Shown: positions 7,406-36,785 of the stretch, piece by piece | Layout: each line of letters opens with the position of its first letter | How positions within the stretch are numbered: position 1 is the first letter of the stretch | From: a virus | IMG/VR virus record: IMGVR_UViG_3300017963_000239 | Location: 1 to 64,000 of that record | DNA: 64,000 bases | Direction: 5' to 3' (one strand) | Position numbers and translations under genes: made by a program | Notes under the pieces: model-generated | Database searches by the model: none | What the model was told of the DNA's origin: nothing | What the model saw: the letters and a program-made list of their open reading frames with translations, nothing else

Positions 7406-7572
7406 GCAGCGTCCAACCGATCCGAGCACACACGCTTTCAGACTTCCAATCTGAGAATACGGGTTCGAATCCCGTGCCCTCCTCCATCGCCTTCGGGCGA
7501 GTAGTCAACGGGGGGCTCGTCTAACGGCTAGGACATCACAGCAAACACCTGCTCTGTTCCCTCGGACGCTGC
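7406..7572 (+). ncRNA. circularly permuted tRNA-Gly(TCC)-like RNA with CCAAC/CTCGG closing stem
   Basis: Order: anticodon arm, T arm, GCCCTCC-T-CCA, hairpin, GGGGGGC, D arm; closed by GCAGCGTCC/GGACGCTGC. Confidence 0.8.
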
Positions 7573-8968: not shown

Positions 8969-9049
8969 ATGGAAGCTGAAGCACTGGGACCCGCGGAGAG
9001 GATCATCGACACGGTCCTCACGTACAACGGGAAGAGCGAGGAGAGCTGA
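8969..9049 (+). pseudogene. duplicated, recoded N-terminus of the downstream vWA gene
   Basis: MEAEALGPAERIIDTVLTY then stop vs MDAETLGPAERIINTVLTY at 9051. Confidence 0.85.
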
Positions 9050-9050
9050 T

Positions 9051-10949
9051 ATGGACGCGGAGACTTTGGGTCCTGCCGAAAGGATCATCAACACAGTGCT
9101 AACCTACCAGGACCATCTCTGGCACAACCGTCCGGGGTTCGTCGTGACGGACAACTCGGCGGTGGGCGTCAAGTGGCAGCCGGTGACCACGAAGGACGAG
9201 GACGGCAAGAAGGTCGTCTATCAGGTCCACAAGCGTGGTAAGCGGCGCACTCGGACGAAGCTCGGCACGCTCTGGGCCGACAACACCATTCGGGACGAGA
9301 ACCGACGCAAGATCGGCGAGTACCGACCGGCGGGGCTTTTCCCTGAGGTGGCGACCTGGATGTACAAGCAGGTGGCCGACGTCTGGAGGATGGACAACGA
9401 GTTCGCCGCGCGGTGGGCGTCGTACCAGTTTCCTCAGGACCACAAAGACATGAAGGTCGTGCTTGCGGCGTTCATGCTGGTCCAGTCGCGGAAGGGCGAC
9501 CCCGTTCGAGAGGACGGGCAGGTCTTGTTCCACGACGACGACTTCCGGGAGGTCGGGGAGGCCATGTGTCTCATCCACCGCAGGGACAAGAAGGGCATCG
9601 ACCCGAAGATGCTGGCGCGGATTCGGGACGTGTTGGAGGTTCCTGCCATCGCGGAGCTGAACCGCGAGCTGGGGTTCGGGCGCTCCACGCGCACGCCGTT
9701 CTTGGGCCGTTGGCCGAAGGCGGTTCGGGCGTGGCTCCGATTCCGGGAGGAGAACCTGCCGGTGTTGGAGGGCTTGGTGAACAGTGGTCAGCGCAACATC
9801 GCGCGGAAGCTCGCGAAGGCTGTGGGCTACAAGCCTCAGTCCCCGAAGTTCTTCGAGGTGTTGGGCTGGACGCAGAGCCAGGCCAAGGATGGTCGCAGGA
9901 AGATCGCTCTCGGGCAGGACTTCTCGGGTACGGAAACTTGGGAAGGACTGAGCGAGCAGGAGATCTGCGAGCTGATCATGCGCGAGAAGACCAACTACAA
10001 GCGCATCGTCGGTCTGCTCCCGAAGGACGTGGGGCTGACTCGGGCCATCATGGCTGCGGCTGTGGAGGCGGGCTCCTTGTCCGACAAGGATCTGATCATC
10101 CAGGCGCCGACCCTGGAGGACTTGGGCTTGCTGAAGGTCCAGGAAATCAAGGAGCGGTGGGAGGCGGCCATGAGCCGTGCCGAGGACATGCGGGCGGCGA
10201 ACATCGCAGCTCGGATGCGTACCAAGGAGGGGCGCGAGAAGATGGAGGCCGCGGCCGACACTGCCTTGCAGCAGGCGGCTGAGGAAGAGATGAAGAACCT
10301 TCGGATCTACTTCATCGTCGACCGCTCCGGTTCGATGGACGACTGCATCGAGCGCGCCAAGAGCCACTTGAAGCGGTTCCTGCAGGGCTTCCCGCCGGAC
10401 CGCATCCACGTTTCGCACTTCAACACGGTGGGGCGTGAGGTGGAGATCAAGCACGCTTCCGCAGCGGGCGTCGAGCAAGCCTTCCTAGGCATCCAGGCCA
10501 CGGGTGGGACGAACTACGGCGCCGGCATTCGGGTGCTGCAGCACCGGCCCCCGAAGGACGACGAGGATACGCTGATGATCTTCGTCGGCGATGAGAAGGC
10601 GCACTCCTTCACGCACGACGTGCAGGTGTCGGGTCTGCGCCCCATGGCGTTCGGCTTCATCAAGGTGGAGTCGAACTGGGGCATGGCGGGTCGAGCTGTG
10701 CAGGACACGGCGAGGGAGCTGGGTATCCCCTGCTTCATGATCGAGGAGAGCACGTTCGGCGAGCCTGGCGAAGACCTGGACCCCTATGTCATTCCTCGGA
10801 CGATCCGGAATCTCGTCGCGGTTACTCCGGTCGGGCAGTACCACGGCGTGCAGCGCGTTGCGCCGCGGGTCACGCTGGTCGACCGCATCATGAAGACCGA
10901 CCTGCTCCACAAGCCTGTCTGGGCCACGGAGCTGTCGTCGGCAGCGTGA
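9051..10949 (+). CDS. vWA-domain protein, possibly Ro60/TROVE-like
   Basis: C-terminal MIDAS DRSGSM..GGT..VGDE; long basic helical N-terminal region. Confidence 0.7.
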   Translation: MDAETLGPAERIINTVLTYQDHLWHNRPGFVVTDNSAVGVKWQPVTTKDEDGKKVVYQVHKRGKRRTRTKLGTLWADNTIRDENRRKIGEYRPAGLFPEVATWMYKQVADVWRMDNEFAARWASYQFPQDHKDMKVVLAAFMLVQSRKGDPVREDGQVLFHDDDFREVGEAMCLIHRRDKKGIDPKMLARIRDVLEVPAIAELNRELGFGRSTRTPFLGRWPKAVRAWLRFREENLPVLEGLVNSGQRNIARKLAKAVGYKPQSPKFFEVLGWTQSQAKDGRRKIALGQDFSGTETWEGLSEQEICELIMREKTNYKRIVGLLPKDVGLTRAIMAAAVEAGSLSDKDLIIQAPTLEDLGLLKVQEIKERWEAAMSRAEDMRAANIAARMRTKEGREKMEAAADTALQQAAEEEMKNLRIYFIVDRSGSMDDCIERAKSHLKRFLQGFPPDRIHVSHFNTVGREVEIKHASAAGVEQAFLGIQATGGTNYGAGIRVLQHRPPKDDEDTLMIFVGDEKAHSFTHDVQVSGLRPMAFGFIKVESNWGMAGRAVQDTARELGIPCFMIEESTFGEPGEDLDPYVIPRTIRNLVAVTPVGQYHGVQRVAPRVTLVDRIMKTDLLHKPVWATELSSAA

Positions 10950-10957
10950 GGTGAACC

Positions 10958-11878
10958 ATGGGTTGGAGAGATCTGCTTCAGGCCGATGACGAGACCGTCG
11001 TCTCGGCGTGGGTCGGGGGCAGGACTCTCCGTACCCGAAACCGCACGTGGACCATCGAGGGGCGCCTCCCACCGGAGCACGGCTGGCACTCTTTCAGCAT
11101 CACGGGCCGAAAGGCCCGCTGGAAGGAGCCGACCAACGCTCCGATGGAGGTGCTTTTCGATCTGCAGCGCGGCTACCTCGTCGGGGACCGCCTCGTGGCG
11201 GACAACGTAGAGGTCGAGCTGGACCCCGCGAAGCTCGCGCAGCGCTTCGAGCGCGTGCACTTGGTGGAGGAAGGCTTGGACCGCTTCGCCCGCATCGCTG
11301 CGGGGCGCGTCTGTGACGATGGACCGCTCATCTACGAGGGGCCGGACATGCCGCTCGGCCCGGAGGACGACGTACTTCAGGCATTCCTGGACCGGAAAGG
11401 CACCGTAGACGCCGTTTCGGGGGTTCCCCCTGCTCTGGACGCGGCCTTCCGGTTCGAGTCCTGGCAGCGCTCTGAGGCCGAAAGACGGCGCCGTGAGGAG
11501 CGGGAGCGTCGGGAGCGAGAAGAGCGCCGCAGGCGCATCATGGAGCAGGTCGGCAGCGCAGCCGGTCGGAGGGCCATGGCGCGCGAGGACTTTGGCGAGG
11601 CTGCTCGGGCAGCGCTCGCGATGGGCAACGCCGAGTACTTGGATCATCGGCGAGCTGTAGGACGGAACGAGATGATCGTGCGGTTCCGTATAAACAGGCG
11701 GCGCTTCGAGTGCACCTGCGACGCGGAGACTCTGCGCATCATCGACTCGGGCATCTGCCTGACGAGTCATGACACCGGAAAGCAGTACGACAACTACTTC
11801 ACGTTGGAGTCGTTGCCTGGGGTCATTGAGGACGCGGAGCGTCAGGGCGTGCTCGTGGTGTTCCGCCACGTCGACTAG
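10958..11878 (+). CDS. putative divergent E2-like (Ubl-conjugating) protein
   Basis: C-terminal IIDSGICL resembles E2 G-x-ICL active site; operon context with JAB/Ubl/E1. Confidence 0.45.
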   Translation: MGWRDLLQADDETVVSAWVGGRTLRTRNRTWTIEGRLPPEHGWHSFSITGRKARWKEPTNAPMEVLFDLQRGYLVGDRLVADNVEVELDPAKLAQRFERVHLVEEGLDRFARIAAGRVCDDGPLIYEGPDMPLGPEDDVLQAFLDRKGTVDAVSGVPPALDAAFRFESWQRSEAERRRREERERREREERRRRIMEQVGSAAGRRAMAREDFGEAARAALAMGNAEYLDHRRAVGRNEMIVRFRINRRRFECTCDAETLRIIDSGICLTSHDTGKQYDNYFTLESLPGVIEDAERQGVLVVFRHVD

Positions 11879-11890
11879 GAGCTGAGAGAG

Positions 11891-12514
11891 ATGCACACGA
11901 CGAAGTTCGAGCTGGCGGACGGCCGTGGGGTCACTGTCGCCCACAACGGAGACTGGTCTGGGGACGCAGAGGTTACGTGGACGGAGAAGAACGGCAAGCG
12001 GGCGTGCACGATGGTGCCGGCCGACGTGCTTCTCCAGGTTGGGAACCAGGCGGCGTTCGAGGCCCTGAAGGGGAAGCTCATCAGCTTCATCGAAGATCTG
12101 GAGTGGGAGGAAGAGCCCGAACCGGTCAGGAAGGGGAACGACATGGAAGCTGGAGTGGTTCTCGGGCCGGGCGGCGAGCCGATCTATTGGCACGTTCCTT
12201 CCGACCGCCAAGTGGCGCACATTCCTGACAGCCAAGTGCTGTGGGATGTGTTCTTCAAGTACAAGGAGACGATGACGGGCTTCGCGCACAGTCATCCGGG
12301 CAGTGGGTCCCCGCTTCCGTCCCACATGGACTTGACCACCTTTGCTGCCAACGAAGTAGGACTCGGGAAGCGGTACGATTGGTGGATCGTCACCGGGAGC
12401 GCCGTAGGGCTCGTCCGGTGGAGGGGGCCGAAGAGGCTCGACTACGAAGTGTGGGCTCTGCTGTCTGAGGAGCCGGCATGGGTGAACGAGCTTCGAAGGG
12501 TTTCAACAGGCTGA
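11891..12514 (+). CDS. JAB/JAMM metalloprotease
   Basis: E...HSHP..PSHMD JAMM motif; JAB domain starts near ATG 12143. Confidence 0.8.
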   Translation: MHTTKFELADGRGVTVAHNGDWSGDAEVTWTEKNGKRACTMVPADVLLQVGNQAAFEALKGKLISFIEDLEWEEEPEPVRKGNDMEAGVVLGPGGEPIYWHVPSDRQVAHIPDSQVLWDVFFKYKETMTGFAHSHPGSGSPLPSHMDLTTFAANEVGLGKRYDWWIVTGSAVGLVRWRGPKRLDYEVWALLSEEPAWVNELRRVSTG

Positions 12515-12531
12515 CAGGAGTGGAGGTTGAG

Positions 12532-12858
12532 ATGGTACAGCGAATGCCAGGTGAAGATGGTGACGGAGCGGTCGAGCAGATCATGGACGCCGTGAACGTC
12601 GCACCACAGGACAACGAGGCCGTGTTGGAGATCACCTACGGTGGTCAGCAGGGCACTTTGACCGACCCGGTTCCGTGGGACGCTGCGGACGGCGACTTGA
12701 AGCAGTGGGCGACGGAGGCGTTGCAGGCTGGGGGCATCCCTGGTTTGGACGCCACGCCGGACGCGGACTTCACGGACTTCGTCGTCCACAAGTTCTCCGC
12801 GAAGGACGGCCTGCCCAACAGGGTCGTACTGAGACCCAAAACGGAATACGGGTATTGA
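12532..12858 (+). CDS. ubiquitin-like (beta-grasp) protein
   Basis: Small protein ending LRPKTEYG-Y, between JAB and E1; GGAGG RBS. Confidence 0.6.
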   Translation: MVQRMPGEDGDGAVEQIMDAVNVAPQDNEAVLEITYGGQQGTLTDPVPWDAADGDLKQWATEALQAGGIPGLDATPDADFTDFVVHKFSAKDGLPNRVVLRPKTEYGY

Positions 12859-12891
12859 CCGAATACAGTGTTTGGTTCTACAATACCAAAC

Positions 12892-13818
12892 ATGGTTGAG
12901 GTTGATGTTCGGGCTTTGGCGGAGGGTTATCAGGACGGAGCGAGCGCGAAGAAGCTGGCACGCCAGCACGGTGTGTCGGTTTGGACCGTGCTCGCCCGTC
13001 TGAGGTCCGCTGGAGTGGAGATACGCCCGAGACAGCCCGAGAAGCGTTTGGATCTTCCGAAGCCCGACCACTCGCTTTTGGTCGAGATTGTTGACGGCCT
13101 TCTTCTCGGTGATGGCAGTATTGATCGAAAGGGGGCTCTTCGATTGGAGCAAGCCCGCGACACTACGGGGTGGTTGTACGAGGTGCAGGGGCTCTTGAGA
13201 GCTGTTCGGTGTTCGTCTAGGATCGTTCCTATTCCTCCGAGGGAAAGGCGCATAGAGGATCGTGTGGTGAGATCTTCGGGAGGCGCATTGCTTTACACCC
13301 CGTGCTACGTCGAGTTGAAGAAACAGCGCGCACGGTGGTATCCGAAGGGGGAGAAGCGCGTTCCAAAGGGCATCAAGATGTCTCCGATGGTGCTAGCTCA
13401 GTGGTTGGCCGGGGACGGTACATACGACCATTCGGGGCGCCTACGTTTCTGCACTGATGGATTCAGGCGCGAGGATGTGGACCTTCTCATTCGTGCCCTG
13501 GGGGTGGTTGGGCTACAGGCAACCAGGGCGGCGAGGCCGCGACCGGGCCAGTACCACGTCAACGTGGATCGCCTGGACGAAGCTGTGAAGGTTAAGGCCA
13601 TGATCGAGGACTTGGTTCCTGCGTGCTTCCGATACAAGCTCTCCTACGTGCGACCACCTATTCGGAAGCCTGGGAGGAAGCTGACCGACGAGCAGGTCTT
13701 GGAGATTAGAGAGCGGGCAGAGCAGGGTGAGTCCAAGGCTGCGCTGGCAGAACGCTTCGGTGTGTCCGACACGGCTGCCGGAAACATCGTTAAAAGACGA
13801 ACGTACAAGGATCTGTGA
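12892..13818 (+). CDS. LAGLIDADG homing endonuclease with HTH extensions
   Basis: GLLLGDGSI and QWLAGDG motifs; atypical codon usage. Confidence 0.85.
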   Translation: MVEVDVRALAEGYQDGASAKKLARQHGVSVWTVLARLRSAGVEIRPRQPEKRLDLPKPDHSLLVEIVDGLLLGDGSIDRKGALRLEQARDTTGWLYEVQGLLRAVRCSSRIVPIPPRERRIEDRVVRSSGGALLYTPCYVELKKQRARWYPKGEKRVPKGIKMSPMVLAQWLAGDGTYDHSGRLRFCTDGFRREDVDLLIRALGVVGLQATRAARPRPGQYHVNVDRLDEAVKVKAMIEDLVPACFRYKLSYVRPPIRKPGRKLTDEQVLEIRERAEQGESKAALAERFGVSDTAAGNIVKRRTYKDL

Positions 13819-13826
13819 GGATACCG

Positions 13827-14402
13827 ATGGCACGAGTAGTAGTAGTTGGAGTTGGTGCTTTGGGTTCCCACGTGGTGCAGTACCTGCGCAACGTGGCCGA
13901 TGAGATCGTGGTGATTGATCACGATAGGGTCGAGCGCAAGAACGTGCTGTCGCAGTTCCACGGCAAGGGCACGGTAGGCAAGTCGAAGGTCCAGGCGATC
14001 CAACAGTCGATGAACTTCATGTTCGGTGTGAAGGTCCACACGGTCCCTCACAAGCTCGTGGAGGACAACGCCGAGCAGTTGCTCGGGGGTGCAGACCTCG
14101 TGTTGGACTGCTTGGACAACGGAGAGTCCCGAGCTGTCGTGCAGCGCTACGTCCGTGAGGCCGGTACGCCGTGCTTGCACGGAGCGCTCGACGCGAACGG
14201 CACTTTCGGACAGGTCATGTGGGACGACGAGTTCCACATCGACTACGAGACGACGCGCGGAGGAGCTACCTGCGAGAACGGAGAGCACTTGCCCTTCATC
14301 TCGATGGTGTCCGCTTTCCTGGCGCGCGCCGCACAAGCGTTCCTGACGCAAGGCAAGCAGATTGGGTTCCTCGTCTATCTGGACGGGGCCAAGCGAGTCT
14401 GA
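13827..14402 (+). CDS. E1/ThiF-family adenylyltransferase
   Basis: VVVGVGALGS, IDHDRVERKN..Q, GKSKV, DLVLDCLDN, ATCE. Confidence 0.88.
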   Translation: MARVVVVGVGALGSHVVQYLRNVADEIVVIDHDRVERKNVLSQFHGKGTVGKSKVQAIQQSMNFMFGVKVHTVPHKLVEDNAEQLLGGADLVLDCLDNGESRAVVQRYVREAGTPCLHGALDANGTFGQVMWDDEFHIDYETTRGGATCENGEHLPFISMVSAFLARAAQAFLTQGKQIGFLVYLDGAKRV

Positions 14403-14455
14403 GGACCATGATCGTAGTAGCTGGGCGCGGTCGTGCAGATTCGTGTGGAAAGAGG

Positions 14456-14484
14456 TTGACGAGTCAACCTCTACCTGATACCTT
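14456..14484 (+). promoter_or_regulatory. promoter upstream of tRNA-mimic cluster
   Basis: TTGACG-17 nt-TACCTT with TG extension. Confidence 0.55.
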
Positions 14485-14513
14485 GCTAGATGCGTCGGGC
14501 TAGCCCGGCACTT

Positions 14514-14625
14514 GGGGTCTTGAGAAGTTCGGTTCTCATTATCTGGGATTGCCCCTCGGCCTCGTCACACAGGCCAACCAGTACTTCCCCACACGCTTGG
14601 GGGTTCGATTCCCCCAGACCCCGCC
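14514..14625 (+). ncRNA. tRNA-like RNA whose anticodon arm is replaced by a CTCGG/CCAAC hairpin
   Basis: GGGGTCT/AGACCCC acceptor, D-like hairpin, T arm GGGGGTTCGATTCCCCC, central CCTCGGCCT-CGTCACAC-AGGCCAAC. Confidence 0.7.
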
Positions 14626-14630
14626 GATTA

Positions 14631-14773
14631 GTGACCAACGGATCAGATCGTACATGCAACGTATGCGGGTTCGAGTCCCGTCACTTCCGCCAAACTGGAA
14701 ATGAAGCCCGACTGGTAGGGCACTAGCCTCGAAAGCTAGCACAACGCTAACCCCGGTCTCCTCACTCGGTCAC
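14631..14773 (+). ncRNA. circularly permuted tRNA-Ser(CGA)-like RNA with CCAAC/CTCGG stem
   Basis: T arm, CACTTCC-G-CCA, GGAAATG, D arm, anticodon arm loop CTCGAAA; closed by GTGACC/GGTCAC. Confidence 0.78.
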
Positions 14774-14784
14774 AAGTCGAATCT

Positions 14785-14933
14785 GCCCCTTTGGGAGAGT
14801 GATACTCCGCTTGCTACCCTCCAGCTCTTGCCACTCCCCTCATTGGAGGGACCGGGCAAGTGCTCACAAGCCGCCCAAGTATTGGGCACCATCTCCGCAA
14901 GAGATCCGTGGTTTGATTCCACGAAGGGGCTCC
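14785..14933 (+). ncRNA. tRNA-like RNA with greatly extended anticodon arm
   Basis: GCCCCTT/AAGGGGC acceptor, T-like arm CGTGGTTTGATTCCACG; shares TGCTCACAAGC with 15077 element. Confidence 0.5.
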
Positions 14934-14939
14934 GGTCAA

Positions 14940-15062
14940 GTCGACCAACTTGAAAGTGCTAACACGCAATTCGCCCAGTGGTAGGGCGTCAACCTGCTAA
15001 GTTGAAAGTCACTGGTTCAAATCCAGTATTGCATTCCAATTCAGCACCTCACCTCGGACGAC
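14940..15062 (+). ncRNA. tRNA(GCT)-like cloverleaf embedded in CCAAC/CTCGG stem
   Basis: D, anticodon (CTGCTAA) and T arms within GTCGACCAAC...CTCGGACGAC. Confidence 0.72.
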
Positions 15063-15076
15063 ACGACCAACCTTTC

Positions 15077-15192
15077 GGGCCGCTGGAATTTTGGTTCCAA
15101 ACCTTTACCCAGCATAGCTCCTCGGCCCCGTCACACGGGCCAACACGCGTTGCTCACAAGCACTCCGAGTTCGACTCTCGGGCGGTCCACCA
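15077..15192 (+). ncRNA. tRNA-like RNA whose anticodon arm is replaced by a CTCGG/CCAAC hairpin
   Basis: GGGCCGC/GCGGTCC-A-CCA, T arm, central CCTCGGCCC-CGTCACAC-GGGCCAAC. Confidence 0.72.
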
Positions 15193-15207
15193 GATACAAT
15201 AACCTTT

Positions 15208-15720
15208 GTGAACGAGGAGACTAGAACCTGCAAGGACTGTGGTAAGTCCAAACCGATCAAGTCGTTCAAGCCTACTGGGAGGGGCGGCTATCGACGGCGC
15301 GTTTGCTATCCTTGCTACCGAGCTAGGGAGGATAAGAGAAACCCAGCCTACAAGCTGGAGCGCCAGCGTCGCTACAGGGCGAACAACCCCGTAACCAGCA
15401 TCTTGTGGGACTGTAGGCAGTCGGATAGGAAACGAGGGTTCAGCGGGAACGACTTGGACAAGGAGTTCATCGCAGAGAAGATTTCAGAGGGTTGCCTGTA
15501 CTGCGGAGAGCGAAGCATCAGGATGACCCTAGATAGGATCGACAACGAGAAGCCGCACGACAAAAGCAACGTCGCCCCCTGTTGCATTCGCTGCAACTAT
15601 TTGAAGGGGTCGATGCCTTACGAGGCTTGGTTGCACATCGTTCCTGCGGTTCGAGAAGCGAGTGAGTTAGGGCTGTTCGGATCTTGGCGTTCGGAGCCCA
15701 TCTCGAAAAAGGGACCGTAG
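15208..15720 (+). CDS. HNH-type endonuclease
   Basis: CKDC..CYPC, CLYC..LDRIDN..H..NVAPCCIRCN. Confidence 0.8.
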   Translation: MNEETRTCKDCGKSKPIKSFKPTGRGGYRRRVCYPCYRAREDKRNPAYKLERQRRYRANNPVTSILWDCRQSDRKRGFSGNDLDKEFIAEKISEGCLYCGERSIRMTLDRIDNEKPHDKSNVAPCCIRCNYLKGSMPYEAWLHIVPAVREASELGLFGSWRSEPISKKGP

Positions 15721-15737
15721 TCATCTACGGGGCACGG

Positions 15738-15764
15738 GCGGTTCGAGGCCGCAGCGGTCCACCA
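15738..15764 (+). pseudogene. orphan T arm and acceptor 3' end matching the 15077 RNA
   Basis: GCGGTTCGAGGCCGC-A-GCGGTCCACCA; same terminal 11 nt as 15182-15192. Confidence 0.7.
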
Positions 15765-15765
15765 A

Positions 15766-15933
15766 GGCATCCAACAGATCAAGTCATACATGCATCCTCG
15801 AAAGAGGGCTCCAGGTTCGAGTCCTGGCTCCGCGACCAGCCCGCAAGGGCTACAAACCGCGGAGTGGCGGAATGGTAGACGCACTTGTGTTTGGAACAAG
15901 CAAAACGCTTTCTGGCCTGTTCACTCGGATGCC
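15766..15933 (+). ncRNA. circularly permuted class-II tRNA-like RNA with CCAAC/CTCGG stem
   Basis: Variable arm, T arm, CTCCGCG-A-CCA, hairpin, CGCGGAG, Leu-type D arm, anticodon arm loop GTTTGGA; closed by GGCATCC/GGATGCC. Confidence 0.78.
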
Positions 15934-15994: not shown

Positions 15995-16224
15995 GACAGC
16001 CAACTGGTGAGATCACACACGCACTGGTTTAGCGCTTGACTGAATATCAAGAGTACGTTGGTTCGAGACCAACCCCTCCCGCTCTGCTTCGGACTGCACG
16101 AAGGTTCCGCTGATCCCCGGTAAGACGGCCATGACGCCGGGGCTAGGTAACCATGGCCAGCAGTCCGGAGTGGAGCGGGAGGGTAGCTGAGAAATCGCAA
16201 CTCTGGTCCCTCCCCTCGGCTGTC
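15995..16224 (+). ncRNA. circularly permuted tRNA-Phe(GAA)-like RNA opened in the D loop
   Basis: 3' D strand, loop CTGAATA, T arm, CCCTCCC, long linker, GGGAGGG-TAGCT; closed by GACAGCC/GGCTGTC. Confidence 0.72.
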
Positions 16225-18872: not shown

Positions 18873-20030
18873 ATGAACAAGGTACACGTGAACGTCGGAA
18901 CCATCGGACACATCGACCATGGGAAGACGACCCTCACCGCGGCGATCACCAAGGTGATGGCGGAGCTTCACGGTGGGAAGGTGGTCCCCTTCAACAAGAT
19001 CGACAACGCACCGGAAGAGCAGAAGCGCGGCGTGACCATCAACACGTCGCACGTGGAGTACGAGTCGGCGACGCGGCACTACGCGCACGTCGACTGTCCG
19101 GGGCACGCTGACTACATCAAGAACATGATCACCGGTGCGGCCCAGATGGACGGCGCGGTGCTTCTGGTCGATGGGTCGCAGGGTCCGCAGGTGCAGACCA
19201 AGGAGCACATCCTGCTTGCGAAGCAGGTGGGTGTGGAGAGGATGGTGGTGTTCATCAACAAGGTGGACATCGCAGACCCCGAGCTGCTGGAGTTGGTCGC
19301 CTTGGAGACGGCCGAGCATCTGGAGGCGCAGGGATACGAGGACTCTCCGGTGGTCCAGGGCTCCGCTCTGAAGGCTCTGGAGGGCTCTGAGACGGGCTGC
19401 ATCGTCGAGCTGGTCGAAGCCATGGACAGGCACTTCCCGGACCCTGTGAGGGACTTCGAGGCGCCTTTCATGCTGCCTATCGAGGGAGTCCACACCATCG
19501 AAGGCCGCGGCACTGTGGTCACCGGTCGTGTGGAGCGTGGTGTGTTGCCTCTCGGGGCGACGGTCGAGATCATCGGTCTGGTGGACGAGGACTCCAAGCC
19601 TCGCCAGGTCGTGGTCACGGGCATCCAGATGTTCCACAAGGACCAACCCGAAGCGCGGGCCGGAGAGAACTGTGGCCTGTTGCTGCGCGGTGTTCGTCGG
19701 GACGAGGTGGTTCGGGGTCAGGTGCTCATCGTGCCGGGCTCCGTGCGGTCTCACATGAAGGCGAAGGCCGAGCTGTTCGTGTTGTCGAAGGAGGACGGGG
19801 GTCGGCACACTCCGATCTTCAAGGGCTACCGCCCACAGTTCTTCTTCGGCACGACCAACGTCACGGGCACCGTGGCGGACATCGGCGAGCTGGACTTGGT
19901 CAAGCCTGGCGAGCACGCCGAAGTAGCGCTGGAGTTGCAGAAGCCTGTCGGCATGGAAGCTGGCATGCGATTCGCTGTTCGTGAGAGCAGCAAGACCGTC
20001 GCTGCAGGTGTGGTCCTCAGCGTCACGTAG
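18873..20030 (+). CDS. tuf: elongation factor Tu (divergent)
   Basis: [58 protein letters not shown]. Confidence 0.96.
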
Positions 20031-36386: not shown

Positions 36387-36732
36387 GGGCTCGATCGGTT
36401 TCGACGTGGAGGAAAGGAAAGATTCGCGTGTAGGCAGCGCTCGACCTGCCTTGATCAATCGAGCAATTTGCAGTTGCCAACGACAACAGCACCCCTCTGG
36501 CCGCGAAGGCGGCCTGAGCGCTGGGCGGGTAGGAGTCCGAGTACCCCGCAGGCGCCAATACCACACGGACTGTGCTCGGGGAGGTTGGCACCGCCGATGC
36601 CCGAGCGAGACTTTCGGTGCTGGACAGGCTGGAGAGACGGCCAAGCCCTGCTGTGAGGGTAGATCAGCTACGCACGTGAACGAGGATCTTGACGGAACTC
36701 GGCGGACCAGGGTTCGATTCCCTGCGGGTCCA
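36387..36732 (+). ncRNA. ssrA: tmRNA
   Basis: 5' GGGCTCGATCGGTTTCGAC, 3' GACCAGGGTTCGATTCCCTGCGGGTCCA with G3:U; tag ANDNSTPLAAKAA* at 36476-36517. Confidence 0.9.
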
Positions 36733-36785
36733 CGAAGTCTCCATTGAGCATTGCAGGGAGCGTCCATAAGAGGTACATTGGTCGA

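What the first reader, a model, noticed from the sequence alone, without database searches (positions are those of the whole stretch)
14514..15192. tRNA-like RNAs with the anticodon arm swapped for the motif hairpin and a shared CGUCACAC loop
Seen: 14514-14625 and 15077-15192 have normal acceptor, D-like and T arms, but the centre is CCTCGG-CC(T/C)-CGTCACAC-(A/G)GG-CCAAC with a compensatory T-A to C-G change. 14785-14933 has similar architecture without the motif. 15077 has G3:U70, A73 and CCA and might be alanylated (inference).
Basis: partly seen in the sequence, partly recalled or inferred. Interest (0 to 1): 0.7.

Follow-up and report, generated by a model that had tools for sequence, protein, structure and literature searches.

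The report
Phage tRNA mimics with Ro60-type handle
Two (really three) small RNA genes of an uncultured large phage are tRNA look-alikes that have lost the anticodon arm and carry instead a conserved two-helix "handle"; dozens of relatives sit behind the same operon, led by a protein folded like the RNA-binding ring Ro60, so they are most likely a new variant of the known Y-RNA tRNA mimics rather than working tRNAs.

Summary
14514-14623 and 15077-15192 fold into an acceptor stem, a D arm, a T arm and one long central arm. They share a 25-nt hairpin motif that differs only by one compensatory U-A to C-G pair.

They are not orphans. A covariance model built from 35 relatives scores them at 65.9 and 68.9 bits. 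Over 50 members occur in more than 20 large-phage contigs, with strong covariation (90.5% of cells paired, 330 double changes, 0 of 500 shuffles as good).

- **Position of the arm:** In most relatives an anticodon-like arm is also present, so the arm sits at the variable-arm position.
- **Loop:** CGUCACAC is specific to this phage.
- **Shared handle:** The same arm, opened at its loop, clamps circularly permuted (YrlA-topology) tRNA mimics lying between the two elements. 14785-14933 carries a variant of it.
- **Synteny:** The array begins about 100 nt after the last gene of a conserved five-gene operon. The first protein of that operon (9051-10949) has a Ro60-like fold, although Pfam TROVE does not detect it.
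- **Alanine identity:** Element C has exactly the acceptor stem of genuine phage tRNA-Ala genes. Charging was not tested.

Most likely these are Y-RNA-type partner RNAs. This scan had already found the family on other phage DNA.

The parts
14514..14625 (+). Element A: unpermuted tRNA mimic without an anticodon arm. Acceptor GGGGUCU/AGACCCC, G73, D arm, closed handle (CCCUC-GGCCU[CGUCACAC]AGGCC-AACCA), CCCACACGC, T arm.
   Evidence: Fold; model R1 65.9 bits, E 3e-20; motif.
14631..14773 (+). Circularly permuted tRNA mimic. Order: 5' handle strand GUGACC-AAC, T arm, CACUUCC-G-CCA, loop, GGAAAUG, D arm, anticodon-like arm (CGA), CUC-GGUCAC 3' handle strand.
   Evidence: Sequence; weak YrlA match of 22.8 bits at 14664-14721; handle strands pair 6/6; same arrangement in L022.
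14785..14933 (+). Element B: unpermuted mimic. Acceptor GCCCCUU/AAGGGGC, a variant closed handle (ACUC x ACC loop) and two extra hairpins before a UUUGAUU T arm.
   Evidence: Fold z = -3.6; sequence; only 14.8 bits with R1 because of the inserts.
14940..15062 (+). tRNA-shaped body (called tRNA-Ser GCU at 14964-15038, but lacking the long Ser arm) clamped from outside by handle strands GUCGACC-AAC ... CUC-GGACGAC.
   Evidence: tRNA 63 bits; flanks pair 6/7 by inspection.
15077..15192 (+). Element C: unpermuted mimic without an anticodon arm. Acceptor GGGCCGC/GCGGUCC (G3:U70), A73, CCA; closed handle (UCCUC-GGCCC[CGUCACAC]GGGCC-AACAC); CUCACAAGC; T arm.
   Evidence: Fold z = -3.4; R1 68.9 bits; ortholog L022:11776-11883; acceptor equals that of phage tRNA-Ala genes.
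15767..15932 (+). Second permuted mimic, with handle strands GCAUCC-AAC ... CACUC-GGAUGC.
15996..16223 (+). Third open-handle RNA (ACAGCC-AAC ... CUC-GGCUGU) with a rearranged tRNA-like body.
7409..7569 (+). Open-handle permuted mimic upstream of the operon (GCGUCC-AAC ... CUC-GGACGC).
9051..10949 (+). 632-aa protein with Ro60 architecture: a helical TROVE-like N-terminal part followed by a vWA domain. It is the candidate protein partner.
   Evidence: Pfam finds vWA only. AF2 model pLDDT 79.5. Foldseek top 10 are all Ro60/TROVE. With the N-terminal domain alone, the top 3 of 48,161 chains are Ro60 proteins, Z 9.3, 8.3 and 7.1. Nearest ESM clusters are TROVE.
10958..14402 (+). Rest of the conserved operon: 306-aa protein, JAB-domain protein (11891-12514), 126-aa protein (12478-12858), an inserted LAGLIDADG endonuclease gene (12868-13818) and a ThiF/E1-like protein (13815-14402). 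The RNA array starts 112 nt after its stop codon.
   Evidence: Pfam; conserved gene order in 13 loci.

Best explanation
Elements A and C (and B) are genuine small-RNA genes. They are the unpermuted members of a conserved phage family of 'handle-tagged tRNA mimics'.

Each has a tRNA elbow and acceptor end: a 7-bp acceptor stem, a D loop with GG, and a UUCGAYU T loop. Between the D and T arms lies a conserved two-helix handle, built as follows:
- a proximal helix of about 8 bp with a pyrimidine-pyrimidine mismatch;
- an asymmetric internal loop, 5'-NCCUC opposite 3'-AAC/ACC;
- a distal helix of free sequence;
- then YYACAMGC.

A and C have lost the anticodon arm that most relatives keep. The same handle, opened at its distal loop, forms the end-stem of the circularly permuted (YrlA-topology) mimics that lie between them.

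The array is probably transcribed as one unit behind an operon whose first protein folds like Ro60. I infer that the handle is the binding site for that ring protein. The tRNA-shaped body would then be presented to tRNA-recognising factors, as in Ro60/Y-RNA particles, where the RNA gates the ring and tethers it to other enzymes. Candidate factors are RNase P, the CCA-adding enzyme, modification enzymes and, for C, possibly AlaRS and EF-Tu.

Shown here: RNA family, structure, covariation, synteny, and the Ro60-like predicted fold. Inferred: transcription and processing, protein binding, and the downstream function.
For: - **Family membership:** R1 scores are 65.9 and 68.9 bits, against 27 bits or less for the 49 real tRNAs of the window.
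- **Family size and covariation:** There are 55 members in 21 sources. Of their cells, 90.5% are paired, with 330 double changes, 0 of 500 shuffles as good, and slid controls at 0.16 or less against 0.723.
- **Acceptor stems:** 11 members found without any acceptor criterion all pair 6-7 of 7.
- **Open handles:** The distal helix of open handles covaries in 10 permuted members.
- **Gene order:** Ro60-like, p306, JAB, p126, ThiF, then the first mimic within about 40-250 nt (mostly about 100) of the ThiF stop. This order holds in 13 IMG/VR loci and in 3 independent metagenome contigs.
- **Protein co-occurrence:** 18 of 19 records that hold the RNA also hold the protein. A complete 436-kb genome has one copy 3.5 kb downstream of the protein gene.
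- **Protein fold:** Foldseek's top 10 are all Ro60/TROVE over 510-583 columns, E 5e-8 to 2e-5. For the N-terminal domain alone, ranks 1-3 of 48,161 chains are Rsr, phage phiLo Ro60 and Xenopus Ro60. The nearest ESM clusters are TROVE (a lead only).
- **Precedent:** YrlA-type tRNA-mimic Y RNAs lie within 4 kb of Ro60, on the same strand, in bacteria and phages (PMC4201824). Phage phiLo Ro60 binds two adjacent Y-like RNAs and host PNPase (PMC12135203).
Against: - No binding, transcript or processing data exist. No RNA run holds this DNA.
- The protein is Ro60-like only by predicted fold. Pfam TROVE is silent. Foldseek on the N-terminal domain alone is not significant (TROVE at rank 3, E 0.11). 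TM-scores are 0.22-0.39 and rmsd is about 15 A.
- The handle lacks the GNCGAA/CGAA motif of known bacterial and phage Y RNAs, and Rfam YrlA does not match A or C.
- The array abuts the ThiF-like gene, not the Ro60-like gene, so another operon protein could be the partner.
- One complete genome keeps six copies 232 kb away from the protein gene.
- Most related phages belong to one clade, so co-occurrence is partly inherited.
Confidence: 0.6

Rival explanations
1. Element C, and perhaps others, is a chargeable tRNA-like molecule. It would be processed by RNase P, given or keeping CCA, alanylated by host AlaRS through G3:U70, and used as an aminoacyl carrier. Possible uses are a tmRNA-like ribosome visitor or a donor for a non-ribosomal transfer. 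The handle would be an accessory.
For: C has G1-C72, G2-C71, G3:U70, A73 and an encoded CCA. The same acceptor stem, A73 and CCA occur in bona fide 74-75-nt phage tRNA-Ala(UGC) genes (L155, L161, L165). They are also unchanged in C's ortholog, although the D arm, T arm and handle have all diverged. From established knowledge, G3:U70 suffices for AlaRS even in minihelices, and tmRNA is alanylated without an anticodon.
Against: Only C and its ortholog, among the members read by eye, show G3:U70. Discriminators and acceptor sequences vary freely in the family, and only about a third encode CCA. There is no anticodon, no tag reading frame, and the phage already has a normal tmRNA at 36387-36735. 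This does not explain the conserved handle or the sealed acceptor ends of the permuted siblings.
Confidence: 0.12
2. The RNAs are decoys or sponges for host factors that recognise tRNA shape, such as tRNA-targeting defence nucleases or modification and processing enzymes. They would act without the Ro60-like protein.
For: They lie inside a 50-gene phage tRNA array. Several differently wired tRNA bodies occur side by side. The elbow and acceptor end are intact.
Against: A and C lack the anticodon arm, which is the target of most known tRNA-directed defence nucleases. The most conserved part is the non-tRNA handle, which a simple decoy would not need. The tight synteny with the operon would be left unexplained.
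Confidence: 0.12
3. The partner is not the Ro60-like protein but the JAB / small-protein / ThiF(E1)-like part of the operon. The RNAs would be substrates, cofactors or targeting devices of a ubiquitin-like or sulfur-carrier pathway acting on tRNA-shaped RNA.
For: The first mimic starts about 100 nt after the ThiF-like stop codon in most of the loci examined. From established knowledge, E1-like, Ubl and JAMM sets serve tRNA thiolation in some bacteria.
Against: The 306-aa and 126-aa proteins have no detectable family, so the Ubl/E2 assignment is untested here. No thiolase gene was seen. The Ro60-like gene belongs to the same conserved operon and has a known RNA-binding precedent.
Confidence: 0.08
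4. They are decayed tRNA genes into which a mobile palindromic element was inserted, so they have no function. At most their tRNA shape serves as RNase P/Z punctuation to release neighbouring RNAs.
For: They lie among homing-endonuclease genes (LAGLIDADG 12868-13818, HNH 15208-15720). A duplicated 3' end of C follows the HNH gene. The units are packed 5-12 nt apart.
Against: There are compensatory changes in every helix across phages whose operon proteins are only about 37-64% identical. The insert has a conserved position and conserved loop sequences. Paralogs A and C are 92% identical in the hairpin but only 51-63% elsewhere. The punctuation idea is compatible with the main explanation and does not compete with it.
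Confidence: 0.05

Closest known systems
YrlA-type Y RNAs with Rsr/Ro60 (Rfam RF02553; Chen et al. 2014, PMC4201824)
   Same: Both are small RNAs that combine a tRNA-like domain (D and T arms with the conserved elbow nucleotides, plus an acceptor-like stem) with a protein-binding stem. Both are encoded a few kb from a Ro60-type gene, on the same strand, and occur in phage tRNA clusters as well as in bacteria. The permuted neighbours at 14631-14773 and 15767-15932 have the YrlA order: T arm, closed acceptor, D arm.
   Different: - A, B and C have the opposite topology: free acceptor ends and a closed handle.
- There is no GNCGAA motif.
- The handle sits at the variable-arm position and has its own CUC x AAC/ACC loop.
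- Many members keep an anticodon-like arm.
- RF02553 does not match A or C, and matches the neighbour at only 22.8 bits against a threshold of 69.
- Pfam TROVE does not recognise the protein.
Thermus phage phiLo Ro60 with Yrl1/Yrl2 (PMC12135203; PDB 9KOP, 9L5Y)
   Same: It is a phage-encoded Ro60 with adjacent phage-encoded partner RNAs. 9KOP and 9L5Y are the best Foldseek matches of the window protein, and 9L5Y ranks second in the unbiased search with the N-terminal domain.
   Different: The phiLo Yrl RNAs are described as stem-bulge-stem RNAs with a CGAA motif, not as tRNA-shaped with free acceptor ends. The window protein has an extra beta-rich insert (residues about 20-95) and no sequence-level TROVE signal.
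tmRNA tRNA-like domain / tRNA-Ala minihelix
   Same: Element C has an acceptor stem with G3:U70, A73, CCA and a T arm, but no anticodon. These are the features that let AlaRS charge tmRNA.
   Different: C is 113 nt long, with no pseudoknots and no tag reading frame. It has a full D arm. Only C and its ortholog have alanine identity. The phage has a separate normal tmRNA.
Class II tRNAs (long variable arm) and permuted or split tRNA genes of algae and archaea
   Same: An extra helix emerges between the anticodon and T arms. Siblings have the 3' half before the 5' half.
   Different: The arm is 45-70 nt long with conserved loops, far larger than any tRNA variable arm. Anticodon loops often lack U33, or the arm is missing altogether. 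No bulge-helix-bulge motifs were noted.

Membership tests
   65.9 and 68.9 bits against 27.4 bits or less for all tRNAs of the window. Caveat: A and C were 2 of the 35 seed sequences.
   Alignments; pair counts.
   The ThiF stop is at 14402 and A starts at 14514. The same arrangement holds in 13 IMG/VR and 3 metagenome loci.
YrlA (Rfam RF02553) | Reaches the family's gathering score (69 bits) | tested here: not met
   No match to A or C at E of 10 or less. The neighbour at 14664-14721 scores 22.8 bits, and adjacent ordinary tRNAs score similarly.
YrlA (Rfam RF02553) | GNCGAAN0-1G motif near the 5' end (PMC4201824) | tested here: not met
   A and C contain no CGAA. The corresponding strand reads GGCC-AAC-C/A.
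YrlA (Rfam RF02553) | 5' and 3' ends form the protein-binding stem; acceptor-like stem closed by a loop | tested here: not met
   A, B and C have open acceptor ends and a closed handle. The feature is met by the neighbours at 14631-14773 and 15767-15932.
YrlA (Rfam RF02553) | tRNA-like D and T arms with conserved elbow nucleotides | tested here: met
   GG in the D loop and UUCGAYU in the T loop.
YrlA (Rfam RF02553) | Encoded within about 4 kb of a Ro60 ortholog, on the same strand | tested here: inconclusive
   A starts 3.6 kb after the end of 9051-10949, on the same strand. That protein is Ro60-like only by predicted fold, not by Pfam TROVE.
Canonical tRNA (RF00005) | Anticodon arm with a 7-nt loop; detected by tRNA finders | tested here: not met
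   ARAGORN or Rfam tRNA call neither one. No anticodon arm appears in the fold.
Canonical tRNA (RF00005) | 7-bp acceptor stem, D arm, T arm | tested here: met
Alanine-accepting tRNA-like RNAs (tRNA-Ala, tmRNA) | G3:U70 with A73 and a CCA end | tested here: met
   Met for element C only. C's acceptor is identical to that of phage tRNA-Ala(UGC) genes. Element A has G3-C70 and G73.
Alanine-accepting tRNA-like RNAs (tRNA-Ala, tmRNA) | Actually charged by AlaRS | not testable with these tools
   Needs an aminoacylation assay.
Ro60 / TROVE proteins (for 9051-10949) | Pfam TROVE (PF05731) sequence signature | tested here: not met
   The PDB profile search hits only vWA proteins.
Ro60 / TROVE proteins (for 9051-10949) | Helical-repeat ring domain followed by a vWA domain | tested here: inconclusive
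   The vWA domain is clear (Z 13-14). For the full length, the Foldseek top 10 are all Ro60. The N-terminal domain alone is not significant in Foldseek, but its top 3 of 48,161 chains in VIA-align are Ro60 proteins (Z 9.3, 8.3, 7.1; next 6.3; rmsd 16-18 A). A closed ring was not verified in the model.

The most novel reading that the evidence does not exclude
These phages use one protein-binding handle as a universal adaptor. It is grafted onto tRNA bodies in every topology: closed, permuted, or clamping the acceptor end. The open-ended members such as C stay substrates for RNase P, the CCA-adding enzyme and AlaRS. A Ro60-like ring, encoded with a JAB/E1-like module, could then be carried on an aminoacylated tRNA mimic to EF-Tu and the ribosome or to other tRNA-handling machines. 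That would be a programmable RNP for taking over or policing the host's tRNA and translation apparatus.
Probability: 0.1. Interest if true: 0.9.

Novelty: new variant of a known kind. Interest (0 to 1): 0.68.

Why it matters
Y RNAs that mimic tRNA are known, but why they do so is an open question. This family offers natural variants of one design, often side by side in one array: the same handle on tRNA bodies with free or sealed acceptor ends, and with or without an anticodon arm. That makes the question testable, because one can ask which tRNA features the Ro60-type particle needs.

The family also reveals a Ro60-like protein class that sequence models miss. It has more than 1,500 homologues in metagenomes. 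It further shows that tRNA counts in large phages include, or overlook, non-decoding mimics. One example is the 'tRNA-Ser(GCU)' call at 14964-15038.

Tried and rejected
- **Motif searches in IMG/VR.** The exact 24-nt motif gave 0 hits. The looser hairpin pattern gave 13 hits, all in unrelated coding contexts. The hairpin sequence is therefore private to this phage.
- **GenBank phage DNA.** A blastn of 14400-15200 found nothing.
- **Pfam TROVE.** There was no hit in the window's record or in the 372-kb relative, nor in 34 homologues even at E of 10 or less.
- **PDB sequence searches.** The sequence and profile searches against PDB found only vWA proteins.
- **Fold search details.** The VIA second look at the full-length model was filled by vWA domains. 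Foldseek with the N-terminal domain alone had no hit at E of 0.001 or less.
- **Rfam YrlA over the whole record.** The best scores come from adjacent ordinary tRNAs, so it is uninformative here.
- **Loop complement.** The 8-mer CGTCACAC occurs 4 times on both strands together, against 3.4 expected, so no target site can be argued.
- **Crude handle scan.** My scan for CUC-helix...helix-AAC was too noisy to use as a statistic: 15 hits against a shuffle mean of 9.
- **Promoter and terminator scan.** It gave nothing above chance.
- **Sequencing runs.** No RNA holder was listed for this DNA.
- **Closer relatives.** I could therefore not fetch the contigs of the 84%- and 75%-identical protein relatives to see whether the CGUCACAC loop is kept in closer phages. 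The metagenome scan returned only relatives at 59-64% identity.
- **Orthologs of C.** Outside the L022 contig, the 3'-end pattern found mainly true tRNA-Ala genes.
Full report
**Setting.** The window is the first 64 kb of an 81.9-kb IMG/VR virus record, estimated 54% complete. It holds 49 tRNA genes and a tmRNA, nearly all on the + strand. The finding lies in a 0.8-kb stretch with no convincing reading frame, between a ThiF-like gene (13815-14402) and an HNH/endonuclease-VII-type gene (15208-15720).

**The observation.**
- The motif CCTCGGCC(T/C)CGTCACAC(A/G)GGCCAAC occurs exactly twice in the window, at 14554-14578 and 15120-15144, against none in 100 shuffles. The single difference is a compensatory U-A to C-G pair.
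- RNAfold gives both elements the same shape: a 7-bp acceptor stem, a D-like arm with GG in its loop, a T arm with a UUCGAYU loop and one long central arm ending in the hairpin (z = -2.2 and -3.4).
- ARAGORN, Rfam tRNA and all other Rfam 15 families fail to match them, even at E of 10 or less.
- Element C has G3:U70, A73 and an encoded CCA.
- Element B (14785-14933) has the same outline (z = -3.6).
- Outside the 25-nt motif, A and C are only 51-63% identical, against 92% inside it.

**Homologues.** The hairpin sequence itself is private to this phage. The ThiF-like protein led to a 372-kb phage contig (L022, 60% identity). There the same position downstream of ThiF holds five tRNA-like genes.

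All five share a stretch with the window elements: CCAG-(helix strand)-ACCUC-G[hairpin]C-(A/U)GCC(A/U)(A/C)-(helix strand)-CYUACAAGC-(T arm). One of them, L022:11776-11883, is the ortholog of C. Its acceptor stem, A73 and CCA are identical and it has no anticodon arm, but its D arm, T arm and hairpin differ, with a UUCG loop.

A pattern built on ACAAGC plus the T loop then found dozens more in IMG/VR.

**Family statistics.**
- An alignment of 35 sequences gives 21 consensus pairs, 20 of them with compensatory changes.
- The covariance model R1 scores A at 65.9 and C at 68.9 bits, while every real tRNA in the window scores 27.4 or less.
- Over 21 sources R1 finds 55 members. On their alignment, 90.5% of cells are paired, there are 330 double changes, no shuffle in 500 does as well, and slid controls reach 0.16 or less against 0.723.
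- The acceptor stem was not in the model. Even so, 11 members found by the model alone pair 6-7 of 7 between their ends.

This is a real, conserved, structured RNA family.

**What the central arm is.** In about 50 of the 55 members an anticodon-like hairpin follows the D arm and the conserved arm comes after it. The arm therefore occupies the variable-arm position. The 7-nt loops often lack U33. A, C, L022:11776-11883 and L109:6461-6574 form a minority without that hairpin. 'Anticodon arm swapped' describes them, but the arm is homologous to an oversized variable arm.

The arm (the 'handle') consists of:
- a proximal helix of about 8 bp with a conserved pyrimidine-pyrimidine mismatch;
- an asymmetric internal loop (5' NCCUC; 3' AAC.. 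in this phage, ACCAA or similar elsewhere);
- a distal helix whose sequence is free.

Its loop is GNRA-like in most members, so CGUCACAC is a lineage-specific feature. Element B carries a variant handle (ACUC x ACC loop, U-U mismatch, CACAAGC), so it is not 'without the motif'.

**The neighbours.** Between A and B lies a circularly permuted unit (14631-14773). Its order is GUGACC-AAC, T arm, CACUUCC-G-CCA, a short loop, GGAAAUG, D arm, an anticodon-like arm, then CUC-GGUCAC. It is the same RNA design opened at the distal loop of the handle and sealed at the acceptor end.

- The same arrangement occurs twice in L022, with different and fully complementary acceptor and handle helices.
- It also occurs in at least seven other contigs.
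- It occurs, unannotated, in GenBank record KX853510.
- Further open-handle units lie at 7409-7569, 15767-15932 and 15996-16223. The 'tRNA-Ser(GCU)' call at 14964-15038 is a tRNA-shaped body clamped from outside by handle strands.

The permuted order (T arm, closed acceptor, D arm) is that of YrlA, the tRNA-mimicking Y RNA of bacteria and mycobacteriophages (PMC4201824). Rfam YrlA gives a weak 22.8-bit match at 14664-14721. Neighbouring ordinary tRNAs score alike, however, so that match alone proves nothing.

**The protein.** Notes from this scan on other phages, and a sibling note on this window, suggested a hidden Ro60-like gene. I tested this on 9051-10949 (632 aa).

At the sequence level only a vWA domain is seen. 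The fold-level evidence is as follows:
- The AlphaFold model (pLDDT 79.5) has Ro60/TROVE structures as its ten best Foldseek matches. These are phage phiLo Ro60, D. radiodurans Rsr and Xenopus Ro60, over 510-583 columns, with E from 5e-8 to 2e-5 but TM-scores of only 0.22-0.39.
- The N-terminal 398 residues modelled alone give no significant Foldseek hit (TROVE at rank 3, E 0.11).
- In an all-against-representatives structural alignment, however, the top three of 48,161 chains are Rsr (Z 9.3), phiLo Ro60 (Z 8.3) and Xenopus Ro60 (Z 7.1), with the next at 6.3.
- Language-model features also point to TROVE clusters (0.84, a lead only).

I read this as a divergent Ro60-type architecture. It is likely but not proven.

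**Linkage.**
- The order Ro60-like, 306-aa protein, JAB, 126-aa protein, ThiF-like is conserved in 13 IMG/VR loci. The first mimic starts within about 40-250 nt of the ThiF stop (mostly about 100), or after an intervening HNH gene.
- Three independent metagenome contigs show the same arrangement.
- Of 19 RNA-bearing records, 18 encode the protein.
- A complete 436-kb genome has one copy 3.5 kb downstream of the protein gene and six more 232 kb away.
- These phages are related, so part of this association is inherited.

**Mechanism.** The best-supported reading is a Y-RNA-type particle. The handle would bind the Ro60-like ring, and the tRNA-shaped body would engage tRNA-recognising proteins. 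Known Y RNAs gate Ro60 and tether it to PNPase (PMC4201824, PMC12135203). A, B and C differ from all described Y RNAs in keeping free tRNA ends.

For C those ends carry the complete alanine identity set. They are identical to the ends of genuine phage tRNA-Ala(UGC) genes and are conserved in its ortholog. Charging by AlaRS is therefore plausible but untested. It cannot be general, because no other member I read has G3:U70.

Still possible are a partner among the other operon proteins, a protein-independent decoy role, or a role as RNase P/Z punctuation. A pseudogene origin is disfavoured by the covariation.

**Limits.** There is no expression or binding evidence.

**Verdict.** These RNAs are a new variant of a known kind (Y-RNA tRNA mimics), not present in Rfam 15 and not found in the papers searched. 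This scan has found the same family before on other phage DNA.

Noticed in passing
window 15208-15764: An HNH/endonuclease-VII-type gene follows element C directly. It is followed in turn by a second, diverged T-arm-like hairpin plus an exact copy of C's 3' strand and end (GCGGTCCACCA, about 15735-15764). This looks like a homing cassette inserted near the 3' end of the RNA gene, with the end duplicated. HNH homologues sit at or in the array in L027, L061, L091 and L133 too.
   Followed up: partly
window 12868-13818: A LAGLIDADG homing-endonuclease gene with HTH domains is inserted between the 126-aa gene and the ThiF-like gene and overlaps the ThiF start. In L022 the distance between the two flanking genes is about the same (about 1 kb). 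Whether the insert is present there was not checked.
   Followed up: no
window 14964-15038: ARAGORN and Rfam call this a tRNA-Ser(GCU) (63 bits). It has a short variable loop instead of the long arm of bacterial serine tRNAs, an A-C mismatch in the acceptor stem and handle strands on both flanks. It is probably another mimic, so the tRNA count is inflated.
   Followed up: partly
window 27999-28530, minus strand: This is a cluster of odd tRNA calls on the strand opposite to all other tRNAs: Tyr(AUA), Ile(AAU), one with a 2-base 'anticodon', plus two hits seen only by Rfam. It was not examined.
   Followed up: no
L043, L047, L059, L063, L067, L069 (about 40-kb IMG/VR phages): A different, highly conserved tRNA-like gene of about 153 nt. 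It has a normal acceptor stem and D arm (GCUUCGG UA GCUCAGYGG.AGAGC), then an insert of about 75 nt ending in CYACAAGC just before the T arm. It is possibly an unrelated or very distant class of insert-bearing tRNA.
   Followed up: no
L167 (GenBank KX853510, Virus Rctr197k) 8983-10932 and about 19490-19690: This is the only GenBank phage record with a homologue of the Ro60-like protein (55% identity). The homologue is annotated as a misc_feature, 'similar to conserved hypothetical protein', inside the tRNA array. An unannotated permuted handle-bearing mimic lies after the ThiF-like gene region.
   Followed up: partly
G004, G005, G007, G009, G010 (relatives' Ro60-like genes): the genome search reports one TGA inside the open frame around the Ro60-like match in five of nine relatives. 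It may lie just outside the gene. Whether it indicates read-through or recoding was not checked.
   Followed up: no
window 15064-15072: A further ACGACC-AAC handle-type 5' strand lies directly before element C, with no obvious partner strand nearby. It is possibly a remnant of a unit disrupted by the HNH insertion.
   Followed up: no
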